DNA of 37,599 nucleotides from Catajapyx aquilonaris. Its lineage: Eukaryota. The DNA lies in the NCBI GenBank assembly GCA_000934665.2, contig KZ538212.1:62001-99599 (forward strand). The letters run 5' to 3'. The translations under genes and the position numbers were made by a program. Of this stretch, positions 21,377 through 37,599 are shown piece by piece. The notes beneath the pieces were generated by a model that had not been told where the DNA came from, did no database searches, and saw only the letters and a program-made list of their open reading frames with translations. Numbering within the stretch: the stretch's first letter is position 1; each line of letters opens with the position of its first letter.

Positions 21377-23728
21377 ATGAAGGCAGCAGTGTCGTTTGAC
21401 AGAATTCTGGAGTCGGTTGGAGGATTTGGGGTGTGGCAGGTGTCCATCATCGCCATCACGTTCGCTTCCGGCACACTCTTCCTCTTCCACAACCTCTGCT
21501 ACGTGGTGGATTCGACCTCGCCCGGTCACTGGTGCGAGGTCAACCAACTGGACGGGGTCAACTGGACCCACCAAGAGATCAAGGAAATCAGCATCCCAAG
21601 GTACAAGCTGCACAGGATGTTATAGCCTACCAATTAATTGCAATAATTACAGGGAAGAAGATTCGCAGTTTAGCAGGTGTGCAATGTATGACCGGAATTA
21701 CTCTGTACTTTCGCGCATGACTTATGAGGAAGCGGCTAACATGACGTCCAATCAGACCGATATTATTCCGTGCCAGTCTTGGCACTACGACGGATACCCT
21801 TACAGTCAGACCACAGTCAGACAGGTAATGCGCTTCTACAATGAGGCTAATCACATGCTAATCACATGTTAATTACAGTGGGACTTGGTGTGTGACAGGA
21901 AGGCACTTCGACCAACAATCCAAACCGTGGCCACTTTCGGAGTGCTATGCTCCGGATTAGTGACAGGGCTGTTGGCTGACAAGTATGTTTTAAAGGGGAT
22001 GTAACCAGTATATAGTCAATAGATTAACCGTAGTTGGTACAACTGCTTTCAGAATCGGACGCAGAAAGACAATTCTGGCTGGAGTCCTCGTCATAATTCC
22101 AAGCCTCTTCATGGCCGCCATGTCCAGCAACTACTACCTGTTTCTTCTGCTACGTTTCATCACCGGATTGGCCGCCTTCGGAATTTACGCCAATTGCTAC
22201 GTACTTGGTAATTGCACACATTTTTAATCAGGATGTTCATTGATATGAGCTCAAAACCTTGCTAGAGTTATTATTTTATCTGATTTTTTTTGACATTCAG
22301 TTATTTCAGTTTCAGAAGTGATGGTGACCTCAAAGCGGGCCAATGCCTGCCTAGTGTTCGACATGGGTGCCGCACTAGGGGTCATCCTGTCAGCGGTGAC
22401 CTCTTACTGGCTGCCAAACTGGAGGCACTTGCATTTGGCAGCGGCTGGACTCAGCTGTACTTTCCTGCTCTACTTCAGGTATGCGAGCCAACGAACGTTA
22501 TCGTGGCTTTGCCATGGTCACCTGTTGTCATTGGGTTTGCGACCCACATAATATTATATTCAGGTACGTTCCGGAGTCTCCAAGATGGCTCATACTCAAA
22601 GGGAGGTTTGCAGAAGCGGAAAAGATACTGTTGAAAGCATCAGAAATGAACAGGACTGAACCACCCAGTGCTGACAACCTAAGAAGTATGATGGAAGACT
22701 TCAGACAATCCGTAAGTTCATTTTACATGTCGCTACAAGTGATCGTGACTTGAGTACATCAGGAGATAGGTCCGATTGGCAAGGAGACGAAGAGCAGCAC
22801 GTGGGACAAAGTGAAGCACGTGGCTGTCCTGTGGCGTACCCGAGAGATGAGGTCCAGAAGCCTCAAGATGTTCTGGGCCTGGTTCGTCATCGGTACGGCC
22901 AGCCACGCTCTCATTTACATGGGAGCACGTCTCCCGGCCGGTCCACACCTGGTCATGCTGGTCAAAGGTTGCGAGAAGTTCCTGGTCCGGTTCCTAGTCA
23001 TGTGGCAGATCGCTCTGGTCGGCAGAAGACCACTGTTCTCCACCTGCTTCTTCATCATCGCCATATTCGTCGCCATCTTCATCGCCACAAAAGACGGTAC
23101 TGTCACTCTTGTTATATTATAGCGCTACAGTTATCGTGATTTGATTATATCTAGATAACGAGGCATCGTAGACCAAATGACACCTCTACACAAAGTAATC
23201 CTCTGCTGACCAGGAGTAGTTTGACTGTTACACGCCCTTTAGTTGAAAAGCAGGGCAATTAAGTTGTAACGCGTTGATTGCATATTTCCTCAGAGCTTGA
23301 GTACGGAGCAGTTGCGCTGATTGTCGTGGCCATGGTTGCGGATGATTGCAACTTCACAAACGTTTATATCTACACCGCGGAGCTGTTTCCGACGGAAGTT
23401 AGAAGTTACAGCATCAGTGCGGGTTGTCTGCACGCCAGGATCGGAGGGATGCTGGCTCCATTTCTTGTGGATTATCTGGCAAGGACTTGATACATTTTTT
23501 GGGGGGAACAACTGATGACATTGTTATATACGGTGGCGTCGTTTTTTCCAGGGCGCCAGAAACGAGTATGTGCCAGGACTGACCCTAATCGTGGTCAGCG
23601 CGTTTGCCGGATTGACCAGTGCCATGTTGCCTGAGACCAGAGGTTGCAAGTTGCCAGAGTCGGTCGCTGAGGTTGAAAAGAGTCGCGACAAGAAAGTGGA
23701 GCCTGTCACTCAAGACACTCGATTATGA
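21377..23728 (+). CDS. SLC22-family (organic cation/anion transporter-like, MFS) gene, copy 1; 9 coding exons, ~555 aa
   Basis: Exons joined in frame: 21377-21600, 21653-21824, 21879-21982, 22053-22207, 22310-22478, 22564-22711, 22763-23096, 23294-23478, 23552-23728 (1668 nt including TGA). SLC22 hallmarks: N-terminal FDxILExVGGFGxWQ, Cys-containing N-glycosylated loop 1 (NWT, NYS), WDLVC, GLLADKIGRRK (MFS A-motif), PESPRWL, ELFPTEVR, LPETRG. The 104- and 155-nt exons match the typical SLC22 layout. Introns are GT-AG except the last (probable GC-AG). Confidence 0.93.
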
Positions 23729-23835
23729 TTGGACGCTCTCGCAATGATTATATGCTGTGTAAAAAAAATATTGAGGTGAGTGTGACGCGCATAACAAAAT
23801 TATCGCTGCTCGCCTTCTTTTATCTGATACCAAAC

Positions 23836-23841
23836 AATAAA
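23836..23841 (+). terminator. Probable polyadenylation signal of SLC22 copy 1
   Basis: AATAAA about 110 nt after the TGA stop at 23726-23728. Confidence 0.5.
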
Positions 23842-24076
23842 TTATGTGTATCGGGCATTGCTTGTTTAATATTGACCCAACACTACTTTACTGATAGTTC
23901 ATCATTGACTGGCAGTTCCAGTCATCGCCAGCTGGAGTGACATTCGTAATTGGTAAGACGTGCAATTGGGTTGAATTGTGCACAGCTTCCATGGTGATAT
24001 TCGCGACTATGTTGATTCCCAGTGCTCATTAATCAGGTAAATGCTATTTAAATTATTTGAATGTGACAGAACTGAG

Positions 24077-26529
24077 ATGAAGACTTCCTTTGACTCGATA
24101 CTCGAAGTGATTGGAGGATTCGGGAGGTGGCAGGGGACCATTATTGCGGCCACTTTCGCATCCGGGGTGATATTGTTGTTCAACATAATTTGTTACGTGT
24201 TCGATTCGGCTGCACCCAGAGAGTTCTGGTGCAAGTTAGAGGGACTGGAAGGGGTCAACTGGACAGAGGAACAGGTCAAGGCCATCACCATTCCTAGGTA
24301 TATTCCGCTTATTGACTCCGGACGGAAGTTGCTTCATGTATATAATAGAGAAAATATTGTTGCAGTTATGGGCAAGGAGAGCTGAGCCAGTGCTGGATGT
24401 ACGACCGAAATTACTCTGCATTGTCTCCCATGACATACGACGAAGCTTCTCTGGTTGTGGCCTCCGAAGAGCAACCCAGACATATTCCTTGCCGTGACTG
24501 GACATTCAAACACTCTAGGTTCATCTCGACTACTGCAACCGAAGTATATACTTGCCTAAAATGTATTAAAGTGATAATAGTGTGTAAGTATAGTGACTTA
24601 TTATGATATTTGTCCCCAGTGGGACTTGGTGTGCGAGAAGGAAGTTCTTCGTCCGACCATCCAGACCGTGGCCAATTTCGGAGTCTTGTGCTCTGGATTA
24701 GTTTCGGGATTACTTGCCGACAAGTACGTCCACAATTTTGGTCAATCAAGTTTAAAGCGTATTATATCGACGCGTAAATGCTATTACCCTCGGTGGCACA
24801 TTTCCGGCTTCAGCTAATGTAAACTGAAAATAGCAAATGGTACAGTACAATATGACCATATATGTATAAGTGTTTACAATATTCCGAAAGTACAGTAGTT
24901 CGCCGAATTCGTCGTGTATTTGCTGATTGTACTTGATTTTCTTTTATACAGATTTGGTCGCAAGAAAGTCATTCTTGGAATGTCGTTGGTGCTTATTCCC
25001 AGCATGTTCGGAACAGCTCTTTCGCCCAACTACTACCTGTATTTGCTTCTGCGATTCATCACTGGGTTCGCTTCTTACGGGATATATTCCAGCTGCTACG
25101 TTCTTGGTAATAATCTGATGTTCATCATGTGGATGAACTTTGTCAACTCTAATGCACGACACTCTCATGTCTTCTCTGACAGTTGCAGAAGTGGTTCACA
25201 CTCGTCGGCGGTCCACCGCCTGCCTCCTGTTCGACACTGGTGCTGCTGTCGGCTTTATCTTCACCTCCGGAGTTTCATACTGGCTGCGTGAATGGAGACA
25301 CTTACACTTGGTCGCAGCTGGAGTCAGCTGCTTGCTTCTCATCAGCTTCAGGTGAGCTCAATAGTGAATCGAGCAGTCCAGTGTACTGACAATACATTCA
25401 GGTTGGTACCGGAGTCTCCGAGGTGGTTGATCCTCAAAGGAAGAATGTCCGAAGCAGAAGAAGTCCTTCTCCGAGCAGCCAGGATGAACGGAAGGATACA
25501 GATGACCAACTCCGATGACCTGAGGACACTGATGGAGGACCTCAGGCAGTCATCGGTACGTGCCTTTCACATCTGAATTCAGACTCTCGCACGACTCTCT
25601 CTTGCAATAGGCGATTGGTGACCTGAATGACACGCGTGAAGGGAAGTGTCACAATCTGAAGCACGTGGCCGTCATTTTCCTGACTCCTGTGATGAGGGCC
25701 ATGAGCCTGAACCTCTTTTGGCTTTGGTTCGTTATTGGGTTGGCCGGACACTGCTTGCTCCTGATTGGTGCTCGTCTTCCTGCTGGTCCACATCTGGTCA
25801 TCTTCATCTTCGGTTGCGAGAAGCTTCTGGTCCGCTTCCTGGTCATCTGGCTCATTGTTCGAATCGGAAGGCGTCGGCTCGTGGCCTATTCCTTTCTGAC
25901 AATATCCGTCTTCCTTGTCTCCTTTCTCCTCGCTAATACAGGTATTTGAGCTCTATATTTATTCAAATTAACAGCCAGCCATCTGCCATAAGTTAACGCC
26001 CAGCACTTACGATAGGAACCAACAGTCTTTATGACAGATCTGGACTACGTGACAGTGGGCTTGCTTCTCGCTGCCAGGGTAGGAGACGACATCAACTTTG
26101 CTGCCATTTACATCTACACAGGGGAGCTCTATCCCACTGAGGTCAGAGGTCACGGCATCACGACAGGTGCTTTCAGTTCACGGATAGCAGCGATGCTCTC
26201 TCCTTTTCTTGTGGATCATATGGCAAGTTGTTTAGCATTCGTCTCTGTAATTATCGGCAATGTAGCTAGTAAACGATGCAATATCTTGTAAGCCGGGGAA
26301 TACAACTACAGGTGACCTAACCACTAATTTTCTTCAGCCGTCCGGCTATGGATACGTGCCAGGGGTGGTGCTGACAGTGTGCAGCTTTTTGGCTGGACTC
26401 ACCACATTGTTGCTGCCCGAAACCAGAGGTCGAGTGCTGACAGAGACTGTGCAACAATTGGAGCAACAATGCAGAGGCAACGAGCGTGGTCTTAAAAATG
26501 TAATCAGTCTCAGGCAACCTGATCTGTAG
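24077..26529 (+). CDS. SLC22-family transporter gene, copy 2 (tandem paralogue); 9 coding exons, ~562 aa
   Basis: Exons 24077-24297, 24366-24543, 24620-24723, 24952-25106, 25183-25351, 25402-25555, 25611-25941, 26038-26222, 26338-26529 (1689 nt including TAG). Same motifs (WDLVC, LADKFGRKK, PESPRWL, ELYPTEVR, LPETRG) and same intron positions and phases as copy 1. Confidence 0.93.
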
Positions 26530-26621: not shown

Positions 26622-27294
26622 ATATACCCAGTCTATACCATCAAATAAGAAATCCATTGATAGTATTCGCATCAAACGGAAATAAGACGCAATGCATGGT
26701 ATATGCACGCTGTATAACTATAGGCTAATACAGTTCCTTTGGACCGGATTTCCTGGAGATTTCCGAACTCGTATTCCGAAGGTCGCTTAAAAAAAAAAAC
26801 CAAGTGTGTGCGTGGGTGTGCTTGTCTAAAAAGACAGGAGATTCCCTGTTCCTCAGAGTGAGGACACTAATAATTTTGCCTTTTTTCATTGTTGGGTCGA
26901 ATGTTGCGACAACCTGCCGCCGGGTGGGACTCTGGCAGTTTGCGCGTTACTTTTTTAAAAAAAAGGTTAATAATAATAACTTCCCGTTGTCCCAACTGAC
27001 CAACTGACCCAGTTTGCCCGGCAGCCTTACCATGAAGTGTTTCCTTACGCAATGTGTGACAGGTGATCAATCCTCACCTTCGTTTCAAGTAAGTCCTGAC
27101 CGTTAACTTTTTGTTGTTTTTTTCTGGTGAAGGAAAAAAAAATCACTGCTTTTTCGCTTTTAAGACACCTGGTGTCTCTGCAGTGACTGAGGTAGCAGTT
27201 ACATTCAATAACGAGTAAGTGCGTCCTTGCCTTTTCCAGCCACCCGAATGCGGCCATGGGTAGAACAGGTGAGCAGCGACGAGCGTAACCGTCC

Positions 27295-27296
<2 letters not shown>

Positions 27297-27332
<36 letters not shown>

Positions 27333-27377
27333 TAATAATGATAATAATAATGATAATAATAATAATAATAATAATAA
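27297..27377. repeat. (AAT)n microsatellite with occasional GAT units
   Basis: Direct reading; it explains the poly-Ile ORF at 27227. Confidence 0.95.
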
Positions 27378-27699
27378 GCTACAGTATTTCCAATTCGGTA
27401 TTGTGTGATGGAGACGTGATTTTAGAGGTCAATGGAATTAAGTGAGGATGAGACACACGATTTTAATTATTCACCATTTGCGCGATTGCGCGTCCAATCA
27501 AATGACAACCTTTTCCGCGCACGTTCGTCTGGGCAGTATTGACGTACCGTACATATAAATGCAATAAGTATAATTATTGGCCAAGGAATCAAGGTCAGGA
27601 AGACAAGTTGGTCTCGATTTGGATTTTGGGTAAGGACGAAGGTCACTCCAGGCAGGAAAAAGGGTCACTTGTTGACAGACACGCGCCAGAGAGGGCAGG

Positions 27700-30600
27700 T
27701 ATATAAACACGTGACCCCATTTGACATGCATAACCACATCCAATCAAATTCGCCTTCCAACTACCTACCCACCCCCTCGGATGATAAGAACGAACTTGGA
27801 CAGCTTCTCCTCTGCCACAGTCTCTCGGCTTCCTTTGACCTGAACACTTGGCAGAAGAGGAGGATTATTGGACAGGGAAGAAGGGAGCTTCATTCACACA
27901 GCTCGTATCATATGTTACGAAGGATTTCACGAAGGATTTTTACGAGTTGTTTTACGAGTGATTCATTTGACGAATGGTGGTGTTCGCCCTGGGGCCAGTG
28001 TGGATCATTGTAGTGCCGTGTGGTGATGGTGACGTGTGGTTTGGGTGTCTCATGTGGTGTTTGGTGAATACTATAATCAATAAGGTTTGCAAACCTGCCC
28101 CATTTTGCCCCCCCCCCCCCCTTTTGNCCCTTTTGCTCCCCTTTTCGATGACGGTCTAATTTTCCCTTCCAATTGTTATCAGTTGCAGGATGAGGGCAGG
28201 AAAGGACTTGGTTTAGGCCTGCTTGATTATTGTTGGAGATTTGAAGGGAATTATGCGAACGTGGTTTTTGCAGTTTGATCTAGTGCCGATCAATTTCAGG
28301 TGGATGGCCGCATTGGATTGATGCGTCATGGACAGCACCTGAACCTGATACTTGCATTGCAGATATCTCTGTAATAATTGGCAATTTATTTTAATGGAAG
28401 TGGACGGTGGGGGAGGGAAGGGTCATTGCGCCATCCCCACCTCGTGTCCAGTCTGGATCGAGATGCTTGCCTGGGATCCAGCCATGGCAACAGTGGCTCT
28501 TCAGGTAAGCTAGTGACATGCACACACGTTCTTAGGACAATTGACGGGTTATCAAAGTGCATTGGTGCCTCTACCATCTGACATTGGCGTAAGATTTGGA
28601 AATGGTACATTTTACATGTGAAAAATCTGATGAAATTGAATTGTAGTTAATTTCTAGTTTCATCTTTCATGGATGAGTGAAATGATCTTGTTTTTGGGAG
28701 ACGCTTGCAGTCTTAGTCAAGTGTTCAAAATTTTTTGGACAGCATGAATACATTGCATTTCCATATGACATTTACAATTTCTGCAATTGATGTAATGAAG
28801 TAATTGCTGCATTCAATAATTAAGGGCTTGAGTTTGATTTACCACCGTTTTATTAAATTTTTCTCCATTGTATAATTGAATGTTGCTCTCATTTACAACA
28901 AGGTGAATGTACTCGCCTTTAGTTATTGTGGTTTGGCACATTACATTTTACTAATTGTGTTCCTTTTTGCATATGGTTGCGCAATTACATGTGGGATGTT
29001 GATGGTGCGACTCTTCTCCGCCAACGTGCTGCTGCCTTCGTGGGAGCCTGCCCTTGAGACCTCTTTCAAGCAATCAGCACTGGCACTCGGGAACACCTGC
29101 TGAGGTCATGAGTCTTTCTTCAGGCCATCCAAAATCACAATGTTCTTCGGACACTACAAAGGAGATCGGGTGAGCAAAAGTCACATTTATAAGCATAGCC
29201 AGAGATAATTAGGAACTTGCATGATGATTCATAATAATTGCAACAATGGGTGGATATGTGTTTTAAAATCCCCTTGCCTACTAATCTAATTGCTTTCAAT
29301 GAGTATGGCAAGGACATCACATGCCTCTGGAGGGGTCACTGTTATTGCTGACAGCATCATTCTCAGTTGGAAGCAGTCGTGGTGAACCTGGGCAACATCA
29401 TGAAGAACCTTCAAGAATGGGACCATGCGTGGATGAGAAACCAGAACCGACAGCCCACAGCAGGGCGATGAGCCTTCCTTCTCCCCATTCCCAGCACCTG
29501 TGCACAATAAGGAGATGGTATGCCACTAACATGCAGGAGACTAATGTTGTTGGAATGCTACTTATTCCTAGTTGTCTAATGTGGGTTACTGCGTTGTTAC
29601 CGGTTCTTCTAATGGTGGTGGCCGTGACAATCCATAGTTAACTTGCGTTGCTGGATTGTCTGCGAGTTAATCTGATTGATGCTGCACCCATTTTGGCCAG
29701 TTTCAGATCCCTCTGTGAAAGGCATGCACTTGATCCCTCTTATGCATCCGCCCCATCTCCTAAAACTACAGTAAGTGACAGGGACTATTGCAACTTGGAC
29801 TTTTCTCATATTAAATGTTTGTTTTCTCACTGCACTTGCCTCATCTGGCATTTCTGTCAAGAGTCAAGAGCTGGGAAAGGTCTTCCTCATTTGTTTCTTG
29901 ATCCTAAGCTGGATTGTGATGCCAGTTTGTGTATGAGCGGCTGGAGACAAGTTGGATCGTAGCAAAGGCTGTGATCTACACAGAGCAAGCCGGAGATTTG
30001 CCAGGACGGAAGATTGCGTGGTATCTATAGCTACGTTGGGAATTTATCTACATTGTGTTAGTAAATGGAATGAAGAAGTGGCAGGCCGAGGGTTTATTAA
30101 TTGTGGTTTTTTTCAGGAATGAAGAGTGGCAGACACTGTCATCATTGGATGGCCATGGTGCCACCGTAGACGGGACCGTTGCCTACTAGGAAGAAGGGAG
30201 ACAGCCGTCACTATTAGCAGCCCAAGTTACCCGATGGTGCGCAATGGACAGACGTGTCGCCGGTGCTAACCATATCTGGTGGTCTTGTTGGAGGCGAGGC
30301 AGGACTGATGTGTGTTGATGGAGACTGCACTTGATGGGACCCTCCAGCATCGATGGCTACTGCAGCATATGGGACACCAAAGGGGTATGACAGCAACGGG
30401 GCCAGCCATCTCGACTTACAGTGAGCAGTGTCTTCTGAACGGACTGCAACTATTGTCAAAATGCACAGGATGGTCGCTTGCCCTGCGTCTGAAGAGGCAG
30501 CAAGTGGGTGTTCCCCAGGTTAAGGGCCCAATCAGCATTCATCGTGGACTTCCAACCGCGTCACTCCTGCGGTGACCATGACGTGGCCTCCAGCTGGACA

Positions 30601-33600
30601 CAAGCCTTCACGTATTCAACTACATCAATTGAAATGGACTCCACAGGGAAGGACTCTGCTGTAGATGGAAATAGTGTACAGCTTCCAGCTCAGGTTTTTC
30701 TTCCCCCTGTGGCAATCATGCTAATATCCACTAATTTTGTTTCAATCTTATGGTGCCTAGTATTTCAGTTGTTGCCCACCACCACAACATGGCAACCCTA
30801 GATGACAGCCACTGGAGGCCTCATCGTATTGCATATCAATGTCAGTCAAATAGGGTAGAGTGGCCACTTTCAATGTTTTGGTGTATGTTGGGTGTTGGAA
30901 TGTGTGGTTGTCACTAACTATTGTTGCACCAATATCTTGAAATATTTTAAATGGCCACATGAGTGATTCATAAGTATGATCTAATTCATTTGTTCAGAGT
31001 CGTTTTAGGTCGCTCCTTGGTAAAAGGATCATCAGCTGGACATGAGTGAATAAGGACACAGTACAACACATAGTAAATATTTAATGTATATAATTTTTCA
31101 TATCATTCCAAGAACATTTCTTTCAGGGATGAGGTGACGGGAATGTCAGCTGCCAACCTGACGAGTTACAACACGATGGCAACCCCCTCTTCAGAAGTAC
31201 ACATCTTGGCAAGTACATCAAGTTGTCTGTGATTGATAGCATCGGCTGCCCTGCTGTGCGCGTCAGAGGTAGGCAGCTCTTGGTGGCATCCATCTACGTC
31301 TTGGACTAAGCTGGTGATGCGGTGTCCCTCTGCCCAGTGACCTCCCATGTAAACAGTGAATCCAACCTGTCTGTTTTTAGATTATGTTATAAGATTCATG
31401 GTCCATCCATCGGACGTGAGGAGGCTGCTGCAGATAAGGGAATGCAGTTGGAGGCAGCAACAGAGACAGCCATCCGAAATATCTGAAGCTTCAGCCAGCC
31501 AGGGGATAATATGGAGAGAATGTGGTTGGCGACTTGTGATCTAATTTGGGATTAATGGGACTTGACTTTCAGATTCCTTATCCAAGGATGTGTGGCTTCA
31601 CTTCAGGCTCGTTCAGATGGAGGAATGTCAACTGGCATAAGAGCATTACAACTAGTTCACTACTGAATCTAATGTGACGTACTGCCCTTGGGTCATCACA
31701 CAGCTATAGAAGGATCACCTCCAGGAGTCTCGTCACTCTTGTCATCATTCCATACGTAGTTATATTTGTATAAATTACTTTATTCTACAGGATCATCTGC
31801 TCACTGGTTGTCACATTATTTGATGCATTGATTCCTCGGTTATAGTGTATTCCATAAATCCTTGTTGCAATGCTACCTCAATTTCGCAGAGGTAACACCA
31901 CGGACAATGTTTCAATATAGTTCTTTGGTCGAAGATGATCAAGTGACCAAGTTACATGTTTTCCTGTAGGTAGGCCTATGTGTGTATGTATGTATGTGGT
32001 TGTGACTAACTATACATGCACTATTGTTGCACCAATATTTTTGAATATTTGTAATGACCATGTCTGACAAGTGAGTGATCCATATGATCTAATGCGTATG
32101 TTCGGAGCCGTTTTAGGCGACTGCTTGGTTGAACGGACCATCAGCTCTGATGTCACACACCTTGTGGACTCCAGGTTGAAGGCTGCAATACATAACAGCA
32201 TGGAATATTAGTAAATATTTAATGTACTGTACAAGATTTTTCCATCTAGGGTCTTGCTGAAGGGGATCGCTATTTAACCAGCTCAATGGACTGGCTGGTA
32301 CGAAGCAGAGCAGGAGCTGTGGTTACCAGCCCATTTCACACCTGACGTGTGTCCCGTACATGATGTTCTCGTGAGCTTGTGATCAACCTCGCAGACACAA
32401 CAGCATGAGTAAGCCATGATGTCGCCAGAGTGTGATGGAGGCAGCTCAGGGTTTTCTTCTGCCGAAATAATTTGTTTCAGGTATATCAATATGGCAGCTC
32501 AGATGTTGGCTATGGACCAGGACTGCTACACGGCAACCCTCTCTCCAGGCAAAGGAAAACTTTGGGAGAAGGCAAGGATTTCCAGTCTGGCGACCTCTGC
32601 TGCTAATATGTGCAAATGAAAAGGTCAAGTGATTGGTGTTGCCACATTTCCCCAGTTATGTGCAGTGTTGCATGTAGGCCTAATGTTATGTACTGCTAAC
32701 TTGAATGCTTGGCTTGAATGCAACTTGGCTGATGGGATTTCGACGTGGTATGTCCATTTCGAGTTCTGGGACTTTGCGTTAACATCCTTGATTCAGTTGA
32801 TTGGGAATGCTGATTCAAATGACTGTTGTCTACAATACTAATAAAGTGTGTGTAATAAGTGTGTGTTTCAGGAATGAATAGTGACAGGAATATTCATCTT
32901 CGCAGGAAGATGCTGCCAACACTGGACCTGATGAAGGACAAGATAAATGCGATGCCCAACAGTCATCATCCCTCCCGAACTCCACCATAGGCGGTGGAAA
33001 CAGCTGGAAGCAAATTGCCAGGGCGGACATACAATGCTGGAAATGCGACGAGGTATTTACGTACATTTTTTTTCCTGTAGTTCAGACATTATCTTTTTCT
33101 CTCCTCTGTGGGAAATGAAAGTGTGGGATTATGTGACGTGGCTTGAGACCCATCCATATTCTCAGGAGTTGGGCAAGATGTGCAGCACTTGAAGACGTAG
33201 GAGCGATCTCCGGCCTTTTGTCATCGTTGGATATTCTGGTCAGCCACGAGATGAAGAGGACCAAGCACTTCACATCTGGAGGACAAGAATGCTGCCAATG
33301 TTTGACCTAATTAGGGTCTGTAAATGATGATGGCCCATAAACATCCCATCACATCCCATCATCTCCCACTTCCCAGCACAGTACATTGTGTCACTAACAC
33401 GGGATTTAATAACTTGCATGTTTTAACCGGTTTTAACATATTGAGCTGCACTTGCACTTCTCTTTCAGGACCTCTTCAGGCATCCTATAGTACCCTGCCA
33501 ATGCTGTAAGAAATGTAGGGAATATTTGGACTGTTTTCAGGCTATTCCTTCTGGGAATGTCACTTGCGTATGGAAATATGGATTGTTGCTGCGAATCAGC

Positions 33601-33619
33601 TTCTCCTGTTTGTAATAAA
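27700..33619 (+). ncRNA. Candidate multi-exon non-coding transcription unit
   Basis: TATATAAA at 27700; recurrent pyrimidine-rich CAG acceptors on the + strand (ending 28188, 28299, 29706, 30116, 31126, 31572, 31790, 32480, 32871, 33468, 33540); GTAAG donors (28505, 28589, 29771, 33506); AATAAA at 33614; no long ORF in the track. Confidence 0.35.
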
Positions 33620-33964
33620 TTAGTGAAATATACCATTACTACCTTTGTAAGTGGCAAATGATGTCTTCGTTGATTCATTGGTTTCTAGTGGTGGCAACAA
33701 TGGCAATGCCACAAGTGAATACCAGTGAATGTGCTCTTTCCAATAGCCTATGCATCATCTTCATTTTGATATGCATTATTGTACTGTAATAATTATGTGA
33801 AATGTAATGTAAAAAAAAGGAATGGCAGGTGCACTTTTAAAATTGAAATTTGTCTGATTTTGAGCTTTCCAGTCGTTTGAATTGCATGTGATGCGATGAT
33901 AAAAGTGCATCATTATTATTTTGTTGGCATGGTCGCCCATAATTTTTGAATATTGATTCATATA

Positions 33965-34174
33965 CAGAGTGTCCCAACTTTTTTGTCCAAAGAGTTATCG
34001 GAAATATTGCACTATAAGCTGCTGCTATGTAAGCAGTGACTTGCAACTGGTTTGTCGGAGGAATGGGGAACACTCACTGTGAACCTTAGGTTGAATTGAC
34101 ATACACTGCTTACAAAGTAGCAGCTTAGTGCAGTATTTCTGATAACTGTTTGGACGAAAAGTTTAGACACCCTG
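33965..34174. mobile_element. Diverged Tc1/mariner-type MITE (210 bp)
   Basis: TA|cagagtgtcccaacttttttgtccaaagagttatcggaaatattgcacta... versus ...tagtgcagtatttctgataactgtttggacgaaaagtttagacaccctg|TA; imperfect arms of ~70 bp. Confidence 0.8.
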
Positions 34175-35954
34175 TATAGTATGGGTGTGGGAGCACCTTC
34201 AATATTGCCTGTGTTAGTGGTTAAGAAGCAATGAAGTTGGAGTCCCTTTTGCAGAATGATCCCTGCTGCGATGAGGACTTGTTCTGGGTGCGGGAATGAA
34301 GGCCGACCTGTGGCCATCTCTCCATATCCAGTGCGGCACCACTGGATGTTGGACGCAGGCCATGTCTGTGCGCTTCCAAGACTGGCAAATGGAAAATGGT
34401 ATGGAGCCTGAGGGTGCAATGTAATATAATTTAAATTCTTAAATTTAGACAATCCTGTTTCAGAAGAAATGTCACTTTTAATCAGTGACTTTAATGGTAG
34501 GCTCAGGCGACATCACTTGAACATATTTAGGGTCTGAAAAGTTGTCTGCATTAGACTGAGCAAAGAAAAATATTTCCTCGTGTTTCATATTTATGGAAAC
34601 AAACGAAGAGCTTACATGCAAAAGGGGTCTTATCCATATTTTGAAATTTTCAGTATTCATGAAAAACCTGTACAGGCCAAACCAAATCGCCTAGCAAAGC
34701 TGCATTGATTTGTAAATATAGCAAACAAATACGTCAATCGAAATTGATAATCACCTTCCCTGAAAGGTGGTTACCTGAGCAGATAATCCGCTTTAAGTTA
34801 TGGATATGTATCCATTTGCTTGAAAATGCGGATATGTCCCCATATGCCTAAAAATGAAAGTATTCGAGGTGATAGAATCCTCTAGTTCAAAATGCCCAAG
34901 TGCACTGACGAATGTTAAACAGTAAACAAAAACTACCTCAACTTCTGGTTTAATTTCACAGGTACACCATTGAGTGTGAAAAGGTAATTAATACCAACCT
35001 TAGACTGTTGTGTTATATCTTTTAAAAACACTTTAGGTTTGAAAACTGTGTCAAAAATGATATTGAGAAGTGCTCATTTTAAATCTGAATCAGTCATTTC
35101 AGTCCAAAGATAAACATAAGCAAGCTTCATACAGTATATCACGAAGCGGAAATAACCGTTAATAGCATGAAACATATACTCTCTTGAATAATGGAGATTT
35201 ATGTGGAGCCTTAGAACAAGGAAATTTGCGCACCACACATATTGGCGGGATAACAATGTTAACTTTAACCTATCCCTAAATTCTCTAATTTTTATTAGCA
35301 ATTTAAAATTAACAATTTCAGCTTTCAGATAGCACCCTCATATTAATCTTATCCCATAAAAATAATTTTAAAGTGTGACCTGGATGCATACTATCACATG
35401 GCATTAGCCAAAGGTATTATTTTTAATGGGAAATGTTCGCAGAATTGACTGTGGGAAGCAGGTTAACAACAACGGCAAACAATGAAAAGTATTTGCAATT
35501 AAATATCAAGATTGTGGTCTTAACAACCTTTGTACGTTGCTTGCATTTAGTTTTATCTGGTAAAACGACCCGAGTGGATTTTGATTTTAAAAATGATTAT
35601 TGATGTTTACATGTGAAAAAGCAAGTGTCAGACTTTCCTGCAACACAGAAAAAAAAAGAGCATTTAGGTCAAAACCGGGACATTCCAAATATCACATACT
35701 GTAGTTCATATATTTACATCCTCGCAATGTACCTTATTGGCAACAAGAAAATATGACCAATCATTTTAATACGAGATTGGGAAAATGTTACACATTAGAG
35801 TTTCCGTGCATCATACGTATATGTAACTTTAAATTAAATATTTAATTACTCTGCGGCCCTTTTCAAGAGCACAAAAACAGCACTTGCATTAGGACTATGT
35901 ATCAATGACCGACTCTTTAATACATTCCCTACCATAAACAGCAGTCCAATGTAG

Positions 35955-36042
35955 ATATGGCAATAAATTTTAATAGCGAATTCTATGTGGATAATTCTGA
36001 CATTATCCACATAGAATTCGCTATTAAAATTTATTGCCATAT
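35955..36042. repeat. Perfect 41-bp inverted repeat with 6-nt loop
   Basis: atatggcaataaattttaatagcgaattctatgtggataat-tctgac-attatccacatagaattcgctattaaaatttattgccatat. Confidence 0.9.
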
Positions 36043-36792
36043 TATATGACCTCAAATATCTCCTCGTGGGGCTCGATTGAGCTAGGATAACATGTTTCCA
36101 TCACTTACTGCGGCATCTTTTCATGTACGTTAGAGTAATGACATGAAACATTCATGAATCCTGAATAACTATACTGGATACAAAGGTTCATTTAAACCTT
36201 TTGTGCTTTAACAGGATTTCCCACATGATCTCGCGAATAACTTGCAATGATATTTCGTTTTGCATTATCGTAATGCGGCTCCTCGCGCGTCATCTCCAAA
36301 CAACGTGCCAACATGTTATAATTATTGGAATTACCACTTTTACTTATCAATTGGCAATACCGGTACCGCTTCCTTGTTACATTTACAGACATCCGTTTAA
36401 AAAAAATTGTACAAATATTTTTCCGCTCATTTTAAATCGTACAGCAGCCCCCTGCACACCGCCGAGCCGGATCTTTATCGCTAGTAGTCTTGTGGTCGCC
36501 TGTGTGGAGATAGAAGGGAGAGGAATTACTTACCTTTTCTTTTTACACGATGCAGCTGGCCAGGGGGCCAAGGCGACCACGGGGTCTAGATCCACCTACC
36601 TTTTGATCACGATGAAGACGCGCTACCGACTCCGCCAAGAGGCGGGTACGAAATTTCTATGTTTGAAACTCATACTTGTTCCTCCTCACCTCCCCCGACC
36701 CCCCCGACTCACTCACCTCCCCGGCCCTCCCCGAGTGCCAACCGGGCCTTGTAGGAATGAGTACTAGTTTCAAGCGCTGGTTATTCGTGGAT

Positions 36793-36883
36793 GGCTGCCC
36801 TAGCCCAGTCGGCATCGCTCCTTTCCCTGATTCTAAGGGAAAGGGTTGCTGGATCGAATCCAGCAAATGCGAGTGCCTTTTTT
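36793..36883 (+). ncRNA. Putative Pol III tRNA-like or vault-RNA-like small RNA, unit 1
   Basis: A-box-like TAGCCCAGTCGG, 9-bp hairpin CCTTTCCCT/AGGGAAAGG, T-arm/B-box-like GCTGG-ATCGAAT-CCAGC, T6 run. Confidence 0.5.
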
Positions 36884-37003
36884 CAGGCTACCAACCATGC
36901 TAATATTTGTAGCTATTATGAATAGCCATTAAATTTCTCTTTTATAACTGTTATTTGGTTTGGAGAATTGGGTACAAGTTCGAAGCGCTGGATTTCCGTG
37001 GAT

Positions 37004-37092
37004 GGCTGCTAGCCCAGTCGGTAACACTCCTTTCCCTTATTCTAAAGGAAAGGGTTGCAGGATTGAATCTAGCCAAAGCGAGTGCCTTTTTT
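37004..37092 (+). ncRNA. Putative Pol III tRNA-like or vault-RNA-like small RNA, unit 2
   Basis: Same layout; the B box is degenerate (GGATTGAATCT), so this copy may be inactive. Confidence 0.4.
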
Positions 37093-37210
37093 CCGGCCAT
37101 TAACCAGACTAATATTTGTAGCTATTATAAATAGCTATTAAATTTCCCATTTACAACTGTTATTGGGTATTGGAGGAATGACTAGTTTCAACCGTTGGAT
37201 TTTCGTGGAT

Positions 37211-37300
37211 GGCTGGCTAGCCCAGTCGGTAACACTCCTTTCCCTTATTCTAAAGGAAAGGGTTGCAGGATCGAATCCAGCCAAAGCGACTGCCTTTTTT
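37211..37300 (+). ncRNA. Putative Pol III tRNA-like or vault-RNA-like small RNA, unit 3
   Basis: GGCTGGC-TAGCCCAGTCGG...CCTTTCC/GGAAAGG hairpin...GGATCGAATCC...GCC-TTTTTT. Confidence 0.5.
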
Positions 37301-37599
37301 CCGGCCACCAATATTTGTAGCTATTATGAATAGCTATTAAATTTCCCATTTATAACTGTTATTGGTCGTTGCAGGAATGGGTACGAGTTCCAAGAGAAGA
37401 ATTTTCGTTGGTGGCTGTCTGGCACGGTCATTGGCGCGCTTTCCTACTAATCTGAGGGTCTGTGGTTCAATTCCCACAAGTCGGACTCTGGATTATACGA
37501 AAGAAAAACATATATACCGTCTGACCTCTTCTCCCCTTCGTCACTTGGGCTTGTTGCCCAGATGGTGGGGGGAGTAGGGGTTGGGGGGGATATAGGGGG

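What the first reader, a model, noticed from the sequence alone, without database searches (positions are those of the whole stretch)
36754..37373. Tandem cluster of ~90-nt Pol III-type RNA units with tRNA-like or vault-RNA-like layout
Seen: each ~205-bp unit has a conserved upstream block, then GGCTG(G)C, an A-box-like TAGCCCAGTCGG, a 7-9-bp hairpin where a tRNA anticodon arm would sit, a T-arm-like GGATCGAATCC and a CCTTTTTT end. The ends do not form a tRNA acceptor stem, so these are not tRNAs. Established: vault RNAs are short type-2 Pol III transcripts, often clustered; human ones start GGCUGGC, have A box, variable central stem-loop and B box, and end CCUUUU. Inference: this may be an unannotated invertebrate vault-RNA cluster or a new family of tRNA-derived RNAs. 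The flanks are duplicated along with the RNA part, which points to DNA-level amplification rather than retroposition.
Basis: partly seen in the sequence, partly recalled or inferred. Interest (0 to 1): 0.75.

Follow-up and report, generated by a model that had tools for sequence, protein, structure and literature searches.

The report
Tandem tRNA-derived repeats, not vault RNA
These short tandem units are real, but they are decayed tRNA-derived genes copied many times inside a large repeated DNA block, with no sign of selection on RNA shape, and the animal's true vault RNA genes lie elsewhere in its genome.

Summary
In detail: three ~90-nt units (36793, 37004, 37211; spacing 211/207 bp) with A box, B box, hairpin and T6. 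They are not vault RNAs. Rfam Vault does not hit them but passes three genes elsewhere in this genome, which also has MVP. Those genes close with a 6-bp end stem that only 6 of 43 units approach. The units are tRNA-derived: best matches are the genome's tRNA-Lys(CTT) (5' part) and a dispersed tRNA-like cassette (3' part); earlier scan notes described such a cassette on other DNA of this genome. Units vary as fast as their spacers (2.12 vs 2.00 changes/site) with no covariation; only the A/B boxes are marginally conserved. Expression is untested. Best reading: a promoter-bearing tRNA-pseudogene array amplified as DNA. A snaR/4.5SH-like functional RNA is not excluded. One vault gene shows a weak residual resemblance.

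The parts
27180..37599 (.). One copy of a >=10-kb non-coding repeated block that carries the array near its right, unassembled end; left ends are ragged between copies
   Evidence: BLAST of fetched contigs against the window, 72-92% identity; 12 matches on 11 contigs for the left part; no Pfam match over cut-off in 90 and 129 open frames
36570..36644 (-). Module u0: divergently oriented tRNA-like module (A box, B box; this copy's B box is damaged), no nearby terminator (first T4 at 36406)
   Evidence: 25 matches on 22 contigs; B box intact in 20 of 21 distinct copies
36645..36689 (-). Upstream block of u0, related to the upstream blocks of the plus-strand units
   Evidence: 62% identity to unit upstream blocks against a 48% random baseline, bodies 54-55%; a degenerate pattern for the block matches 11 places, all in these clusters
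36749..36792 (+). Upstream block (type A) of unit 1; candidate TFIIIB-binding region
   Evidence: repeat family D2; function inferred
36793..36883 (+). Unit 1: tRNA-derived Pol III-type unit (A box, 9-bp hairpin, B box, trailer, T6)
36960..37092 (+). Upstream block and unit 2 (RNA part 37004-37092; B box damaged)
37119..37137 (.). 8-bp palindrome in the AT-rich spacer (repeated, with changes, in each spacer); the spacer stretch just before it is as conserved as the A box
   Evidence: sequence; fold z -2.4; 0.50 derived alleles/site against 0.93 in the A box
37169..37300 (+). Upstream block and unit 3 (RNA part 37211-37300); its trailer and T-run match those of one tRNA-Lys(CTT) gene on contig C120
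37369..37486 (+). Upstream block (type B) and module u4 (37413-37486): diverged tRNA-like head without the 6-nt insertion and without a T4 terminator before the window ends
   Evidence: 7 matches, all at contig ends
37520..37585 (+). Long G.U-rich hairpin downstream of u4, followed by G-rich sequence where the contigs break
   Evidence: -40 kcal/mol, z -3.3, 1 of 200 shuffles as good; present in all 7 copies compared

Best explanation
The units are tRNA-derived pseudogene modules that kept the parts of a type-2 Pol III gene (A box, B box, oligo-T terminator, an upstream block) but lost the cloverleaf. History: a tRNA-like ancestor with its upstream block duplicated into a small cluster (u0 on the minus strand, the unit, u4). 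The unit gained about 6 nt in the anticodon-arm region, giving the extended hairpin. It was then multiplied head-to-tail by unequal crossing-over, and the whole >=10-kb block was copied to 16-22 or more places as DNA. Working (inferred from general Pol III knowledge, not shown): TFIIIC binds A/B, Pol III starts between about -6 and +1 and stops at the T-run; a 90-96-nt product without an acceptor stem cannot be matured or charged as tRNA and is probably turned over. The RNA shape is not what is being kept; at most the promoter is.
For: Shown: a profile of 43 units hits all 12 tRNA-Lys genes in the loci given (E 5e-6 to 8e-3), best over positions 3-89 of 90 on the gene whose trailer matches unit 3, and none of the 3 vault genes. 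Lys-CTT ranks first among 50 distinct tRNA genes of 16 anticodon labels (18.9 bits; Met-CAT 15.0). The 5' 21 nt fit tRNA-Lys best (z 6.5), the rest fits a dispersed tRNA-like cassette best (z 5.3). All 40 scored matches lie in arrays on 16 contigs, each with u0 and the same upstream flank. RNA part and spacer vary alike: pi 0.156 vs 0.157 (39 units); 2.12 vs 2.00 changes/site, p 0.40 (36 units); 1.21 vs 1.22 derived alleles/site. Hairpin: 1 compensatory cell against 1.0 in shuffles; 6 tolerated and 11 disruptive alleles against 4.1 and 13.0 expected, p 0.20. In 14 first units the flank 36543-36744 is better conserved (pi 0.06-0.09) than the unit (0.156). Type-B upstream blocks are 89% identical to that of u4 while the bodies are 59%, as expected from unequal crossing-over.
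Against: A and B boxes change less than other sites (1.36 vs 2.22 changes/site; site permutation p 0.023, contiguous-window p 0.054). A T-run of 5 or more is present in 46 of 49 units, the 3 misses being two contig ends and one insertion, and the central hairpin is predicted in 34 of 43. The upstream block is somewhat better kept than the body between old paralogues (62% vs 54-55%). Copies are young and recombine, so the tests have limited power and tree-based counts are rough. The parent is not unique (tRNA-Lys and the cassette score alike overall) and several tRNA isotypes were not sampled. The carrier block is unclassified.
Confidence: 0.6

Rival explanations
1. A young, expressed, lineage-specific small-RNA family that works like primate snaR or rodent 4.5SH: Pol III makes a 90-96-nt hairpin RNA from many copies, dosage is set by array length, and the RNA binds a double-strand or tRNA-binding protein.
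For: 28 of 49 units pass all three motif tests (A box, B box, T5+); boxes marginally conserved; hairpin predicted in 34 of 43; same mode of spread as snaR (PMC3045588, passages).
Against: No excess conservation or covariation in the RNA body; mean folding z only -1.27, <= -2 in 10 of 43.
Confidence: 0.17
2. The cluster is kept for a DNA-level or element-level job: TFIIIC-bound boxes act as a boundary or recruitment site, or the terminator-less modules u0 and u4 drive read-through transcripts (u4 into the long hairpin, like a tRNA-hairpin cassette) that serve the repeated block, for example a giant non-autonomous element or a subtelomeric repeat.
For: Conservation is limited to promoter boxes, as in Helenus (PMC10886601, sections read); five modules in divergent layout; u0 region is the best-conserved part; every array copy found lies within about 1.5 kb of a contig end; a 14-nt G-rich minisatellite occurs in exact tandem form on only 2 contigs, both carrying the block.
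Against: No terminal repeats, target duplications or coding capacity were found; the right end is unassembled; repeats break short-read assemblies anyway; ordinary TTAGG arrays are plentiful.
Confidence: 0.13
3. A divergent vault-RNA subfamily, or a chimera built partly from a vault gene, that binds TEP1 or the vault.
For: The genome has MVP and a TROVE gene. One vault gene (C907) shares its first 12 nt with some units and resembles them weakly in the upstream block (z 3.2; fourth of 86 sequences, second outside the family) and beyond nt 21 (z 2.9, 0 of 200 shuffles).
Against: No Rfam Vault hit. End-to-end pairing averages 2.3 bp, >=4 in 6 of 43, against 5.3-6.2 in the three vault genes. The TTACTTCG signature is matched within 2 mismatches in 1 of 45 units but within 0-1 in all three vault genes. 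The other two vault genes show no similarity beyond nt 21 (z 0.0), and tRNA-Lys and the cassette each fit better over their part.
Confidence: 0.06
4. A tandem array of a TRIM with tRNA-derived LTRs (Helenus type) or of a SINE head.
For: Unit size and tRNA-Lys-like boxes recall hymenopteran Helenus, and tandem arrays of Helenus are known (PMC10886601).
Against: No primer-binding site (longest match 8 nt to the 3' ends of 42 tRNAs), longest purine run 7 in the spacer; a terminator inside each unit; no solo or dispersed copies among 40 scored matches; no target-site duplication or tail.
Confidence: 0.04

Closest known systems
tRNA pseudogene (tDNA) clusters and tRNA-derived repeats of eukaryotes (PMC2888827, passages read)
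   Same: Clustered, fast-turning-over tRNA-derived sequences with A/B boxes, evolving like unconstrained DNA.
   Different: These units are too remodelled for ARAGORN or Rfam tRNA, keep their own terminator and upstream block, and ride in a >=10-kb repeated block.
Primate snaR and rodent 4.5SH RNA genes (PMC3045588, passages read)
   Same: Short lineage-specific Pol III units derived from an older Pol III element, in tandem arrays spread by segmental duplication.
   Different: Those are 7SL/Alu/B1-derived and shown to be expressed (snaR binds NF90); these are tRNA-derived, period ~210 bp, expression unknown. A works-like comparison only.
Vault RNA (Rfam RF00006; PMC7904556 passages, PMC8824774 section 20)
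   Same: 80-150 nt, type-2 Pol III layout, GGC start, CC plus T-run end, clustering.
   Different: No panhandle joining the ends, no TTACTTCG signature, no Rfam score; tRNA-colinear body.
Helenus / TRIMp3 non-autonomous LTR elements (PMC10886601, parts 3 and 4 of 6 read)
   Same: tRNA-derived sequence kept mainly at boxes A and B inside a repeated element; tandem arrays occur.
   Different: No PBS, PPT, TSD or solo LTRs here; internal terminator.
tRNA-like cassette of the foldback elements of this same genome (earlier notes e1-7500488, e1-7497663; sequences seen)
   Same: Similar 3' part with GGATCGAATCC B box; profile score 13-16 bits; carried by DNA repeats.
   Different: Different A-box region and upstream sequence; dispersed in large numbers as inward-facing pairs rather than head-to-tail arrays.

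Membership tests
Vault RNA (RF00006) | Score at or above the Rfam gathering threshold (34 bits) | tested here: not met
   No Vault match at E<=10 in 35000-37599 or 37195-37310; none in two array loci holding 11 units while three genes elsewhere pass
Vault RNA (RF00006) | Panhandle stem joining 5' and 3' ends | tested here: not met
   Mean 2.26 expected pairs, >=4 in 6 of 43; vault genes 5.3-6.2; 58% of cells paired, no covariation, for one hand-drawn closing stem
Vault RNA (RF00006) | Box A followed by the TTACTTCG signature (PMC8824774) | tested here: not met
   1 of 45 units within 2 mismatches; vault genes 0, 1, 1 mismatches
Vault RNA (RF00006) | Type-2 Pol III layout, 80-150 nt, oligo-T end | tested here: met
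   A box 33, B box 46, T5+ 46, all three 28 of 49
Vault RNA (RF00006) | Host has vault proteins | tested here: met
   MVP repeats on C7; one TROVE gene on C1228, not resolved as TEP1 or Ro60
Vault RNA (RF00006) | Association with TEP1 or the vault particle | not testable with these tools
   needs immunoprecipitation
Functional tRNA (RF00005) | Cloverleaf with 7-bp acceptor stem and 5-bp T stem | tested here: not met
tRNA-derived sequence (pseudogene-type) | Colinear, significant similarity to a tRNA gene of the genome | tested here: met
   E 5e-6 to 8e-3 on 12 tRNA-Lys genes; Lys-CTT first of 16 labels sampled; not all isotypes sampled
tRNA-derived SINE | Dispersed copies with body, tail and target-site duplication | tested here: not met
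   All 40 scored matches in arrays with shared flanks; 9 of 49 candidates unscored and counts are lower bounds
Helenus / TRIMp3 | PBS and PPT between tRNA-bearing LTRs; 4-bp TSD; solo LTRs | tested here: not met
   Longest PBS-like match 8 nt among 42 tRNA ends, longest purine run 7; no solo copies
Y RNA / stem-bulge RNA | Rfam match and Ro60-binding end stem | tested here: not met
   No Rfam match; no stable end stem
snaR / 4.5SH-like functional Pol III RNA (works-like) | Discrete, abundant transcript with a protein partner | not testable with these tools
Subtelomeric repeat | Position next to the telomeric array | tested here: inconclusive
   All copies run off contig ends; no continuation found

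The most novel reading that the evidence does not exclude
A lineage-specific, expressed family of tRNA-derived small RNAs in an arthropod, encoded by a five-module Pol III cluster (one divergent module, a 2-8-unit array, and a terminator-less tRNA-like head that reads into a pre-miRNA-sized hairpin) that has been amplified to 16-22 or more loci: an invertebrate counterpart of snaR/4.5SH, possibly with a part borrowed from a vault gene.
Probability: 0.2. Interest if true: 0.62.

Novelty: new variant of a known kind. Interest (0 to 1): 0.3.

Why it matters
As a neutral repeat it matters little: it is one more way tRNA genes seed repeats, and a warning that a GGC...CC-T-run layout with A/B boxes is not enough to call a vault RNA. 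If it is expressed, it would be a rare case of a new Pol III small-RNA family caught between pseudogene and function, with some 50 variants to compare. The side result may be worth more: three canonical vault RNA genes plus MVP in an arthropod genome. Four literature searches listed no paper describing arthropod vault RNAs, but the library is incomplete and database annotations were not checked.

Tried and rejected
No RNA holder was listed for 36300-37599, so no reads were laid; this says nothing on expression. Rfam scans gave only hairpin-type chance hits below cut-off. A genome-wide scan with the unit model was not possible, so solitary distant copies are not excluded; the model was run on 14 held sources only. 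Lowered ARAGORN thresholds gave only spurious intron-spanning calls. Pfam on 90 and 129 open frames of the block gave nothing over cut-off, and a six-frame cross-copy comparison showed no protein I could recognise, so no transposase, helicase or RT was found. Telomere reading of the 14-nt G-rich repeat: weakened because TTAGG arrays are abundant (432 pattern matches) and a copy lies reversed inside C12374; not excluded. Searches for the block's right end found only the source contig each time. Initiator tRNA-Met and tRNA-Ala(AGC), which share the GGATCGA loop, were rejected as parents (profile score at most about 4 bits; lower ranks). U6 upstream sequence shows only a short look-alike and did not rank among the top 12 upstream matches. 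My first hairpin register was off by one and was redone; only its T-arm rows are used. Phage and metagenome collections gave no match. The sigma-70 scan is irrelevant to a eukaryote. The trypanosome vault-RNA paper by Kolev et al. was not held and Stadler 2009 was not read; both are known to me only through citing papers or recall. No supplements were read.

Full report
Observation. The window ends in a head-to-tail repeat (period 209, 3.2 copies). Three ~90-nt units start at 36793, 37004 and 37211, each with an A-box motif, a central hairpin, a B-box motif and six T. Whole repeats are 84.7-91.9% identical. They are not tRNAs: ARAGORN finds none, Rfam gives no tRNA or Vault match at E<=10, and the acceptor register holds 2-5 of 7 pairs in the 30 of 43 units scored.

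Copy number and context. A search of the own genome (286 Mb, 20,583 contigs) gave 40 scored matches of 49 candidates on 16 contigs; from those contigs I extracted 49 units in arrays of 1-8, some cut by contig ends. The flanks are shared: window 27180/27304-37599 is one copy of a block of 10 kb or more, 72-92% identical between copies, with internal duplications and insertions. Left ends differ between copies and show no common terminus; four large contigs compared over 8-12 kb of left flank shared no long homology beyond the block. The right end is unassembled: all 7 matches to 37405-37599 stop within 80 nt of a contig end and two searches for a continuation returned only their source. No coding capacity was found in 90 and 129 frames. 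Some contigs may be alleles (C4626 is 97-99% identical in the array). Earlier notes call this genome an arthropod; I did not test that directly, though TTAGG arrays fit it (recalled: TTAGG is the usual arthropod telomeric motif).

Two further modules. On the minus strand, 36644-36570 is a tRNA-like module (u0) found 25 times on 22 contigs, with an intact B box in 20 of 21 distinct copies, the window's being the damaged one. At 37413-37486 lies a diverged head (u4) with no T4 before the window ends, followed by a hairpin of -40 kcal/mol (z -3.3). All three module types share a ~40-nt upstream block: u0 against units 62% upstream and 54-55% in the body, baseline 48%; u4 against type-B units 89% and 59%. 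The second pair is best read as chimeras from unequal crossing-over between a unit and u4 (inference), not as selection.

Vault test. The genome has MVP (4 repeat matches on C7) and a TROVE gene, so the idea was fair; MVP is reported from several non-winged hexapods and other arthropods (PMC11219742, passages). But the Rfam Vault model finds three other genes over its cut-off (42.6, 35.2, 34.7 bits; only 49 of 15,687 candidates were scored, so there may be more) and none in two array loci holding 11 units. Vault RNAs are defined by boxes plus a panhandle joining the ends (PMC8824774, section 20; PMC7904556, passages). The three genes form 5.3-6.2 end-to-end pairs; the units average 2.26, with 4 or more in 6 of 43. 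The TTACTTCG signature is matched in 1 of 45 units within 2 mismatches and in all three genes within 0-1. Against this: the C907 vault gene resembles the units weakly in the upstream block (z 3.2, fourth of 86 sequences), the first 21 nt (z 3.6) and the rest (z 2.9, 0 of 200 shuffles, 12 of 45 units used). The other two vault genes do not beyond nt 21. I keep a small probability for a vault-derived part.

Origin. A sequence profile of 43 units (6 of 49 left out: 2 duplicates, 2 cut by contig ends, 1 with N, 1 interrupted) hits all 12 tRNA-Lys genes in the loci supplied, best across positions 3-89 on the gene whose trailer and T-run match unit 3, and no vault gene. Lys-CTT ranks first among 50 distinct genes of 16 anticodon labels (the script failed after printing this table). 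My tRNA sample was enriched for Lys by the pattern used and lacks several isotypes. A dispersed tRNA-like cassette, which makes up most of the 100 listed of 304 matches to a T-arm pattern and which I take to be the one earlier notes describe in foldback elements, scores 13-16 bits and fits nt 22-end better than tRNA-Lys (z 5.3 vs 2.3), while tRNA-Lys fits nt 1-21 better (z 6.5 vs 2.1). So the units are tRNA-derived; whether from tRNA-Lys alone or as a chimera with the cassette is open.

Selection. RNA part and spacer vary alike: pi 0.156 and 0.157 (39 of 49 units with full flanks); 2.12 and 2.00 parsimony changes per site, p 0.40 (36 rows after dropping 3 with broken flanks); 1.21 and 1.22 derived alleles per site. 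The hairpin shows 1 compensatory cell against 1.0 in shuffles, and 6 tolerated to 11 disruptive alleles against 4.1 to 13.0 expected (p 0.20). RNAalifold gives only -5.1 kcal/mol. In 14 first units the flank holding u0 is better conserved (pi 0.06-0.09) than the unit (0.156). On the other side, A and B boxes change less than other sites (1.36 vs 2.22; p 0.023 by site, 0.054 by contiguous window), the T-run is present in all 46 units that are complete at that end, and the hairpin is predicted in 34 of 43; but a 16-nt spacer stretch is better conserved than either box. Recombination among units makes these counts rough.

How it most likely works. Shown: anatomy, tRNA ancestry, DNA-level amplification, no detectable constraint on RNA structure. 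Inferred from general knowledge of type-2 Pol III genes: the 28 of 49 units with all three signals could be transcribed into 90-96-nt RNAs that cannot be matured or charged as tRNA and are probably degraded. I put this passenger reading at 0.6, a functional snaR/4.5SH-like RNA at 0.17 (same mode of spread, PMC3045588, passages), a DNA-level or element-level role at 0.13, a vault derivative at 0.06 and a TRIM or SINE at 0.04 (no PBS or PPT; Helenus features from PMC10886601).

Verdict. Real feature, not a vault-RNA cluster; a new variant of a known kind (tRNA-derived Pol III repeats in clusters, PMC2888827, passages). Look-ups by sequence in the scan's notes found no earlier report of this family. 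Interest 0.3. The canonical vault genes found on the way deserve their own follow-up.

Noticed in passing
L055:1501-1588 + (C1565), L056:1501-1583 - (C907), L057:1501-1592 - (C20579); MVP at G000:C7:181864-183085; TROVE gene at G000:C1228:42956-46382: Three vault RNA genes over the Rfam cut-off, with 6-bp closing stem and signature but no canonical B box, and a CRE-like TGACGT upstream in two of them; MVP and a TROVE gene are present. Possibly undescribed arthropod vault RNAs (searches listed no such paper).
   Followed up: partly
window 35955-36042: Perfect 41-bp inverted repeat with a 6-nt loop; the other copies of the block printed lack it, so it looks like a recent template-switch event private to this copy. 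It explains the weak miRNA-family hits.
   Followed up: partly
L042 (C12705) end, L075 (C17801) end, L041 (C12374) end: A 14-nt G-rich minisatellite is joined directly to the block at two different points and lies reversed in a third contig; the exact two-copy pattern occurs on only 2 contigs. Internal minisatellite or end-healing, unresolved.
   Followed up: partly
L035:6564 onward (C7659): A tRNA-derived SINE has inserted into the spacer palindrome of one array, flanked by an apparent duplication of spacer sequence.
   Followed up: no
window 21381-26500: Tandem, partly repeated MFS/sugar-transporter-type gene pieces left of the block (weak Pfam hits); C4626 has paralogous pieces at 67-78% identity.
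   Followed up: no
window 27690-27720 and 28500-33500: A TATA-like motif next to CACGTG, followed by many splice-acceptor-like sites and ~1.1-kb internal duplications, suggests the block holds a decayed spliced transcription unit; no protein family was found.
   Followed up: partly
L179-L208 and L209, L212: The dispersed tRNA-like cassette and two U6 genes both carry AGTACATG about 27-33 nt upstream, in place of a TATA box; type-A units have a similar AGTAC motif at about -33. Possible species-specific Pol III upstream element, not tested statistically.
   Followed up: no
L103, L104 (C120): A tandem cluster of near-identical tRNA-Lys(CTT) genes spaced 360-700 bp with related upstream sequences, one of which is the best non-family match to the unit upstream block.
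   Followed up: partly
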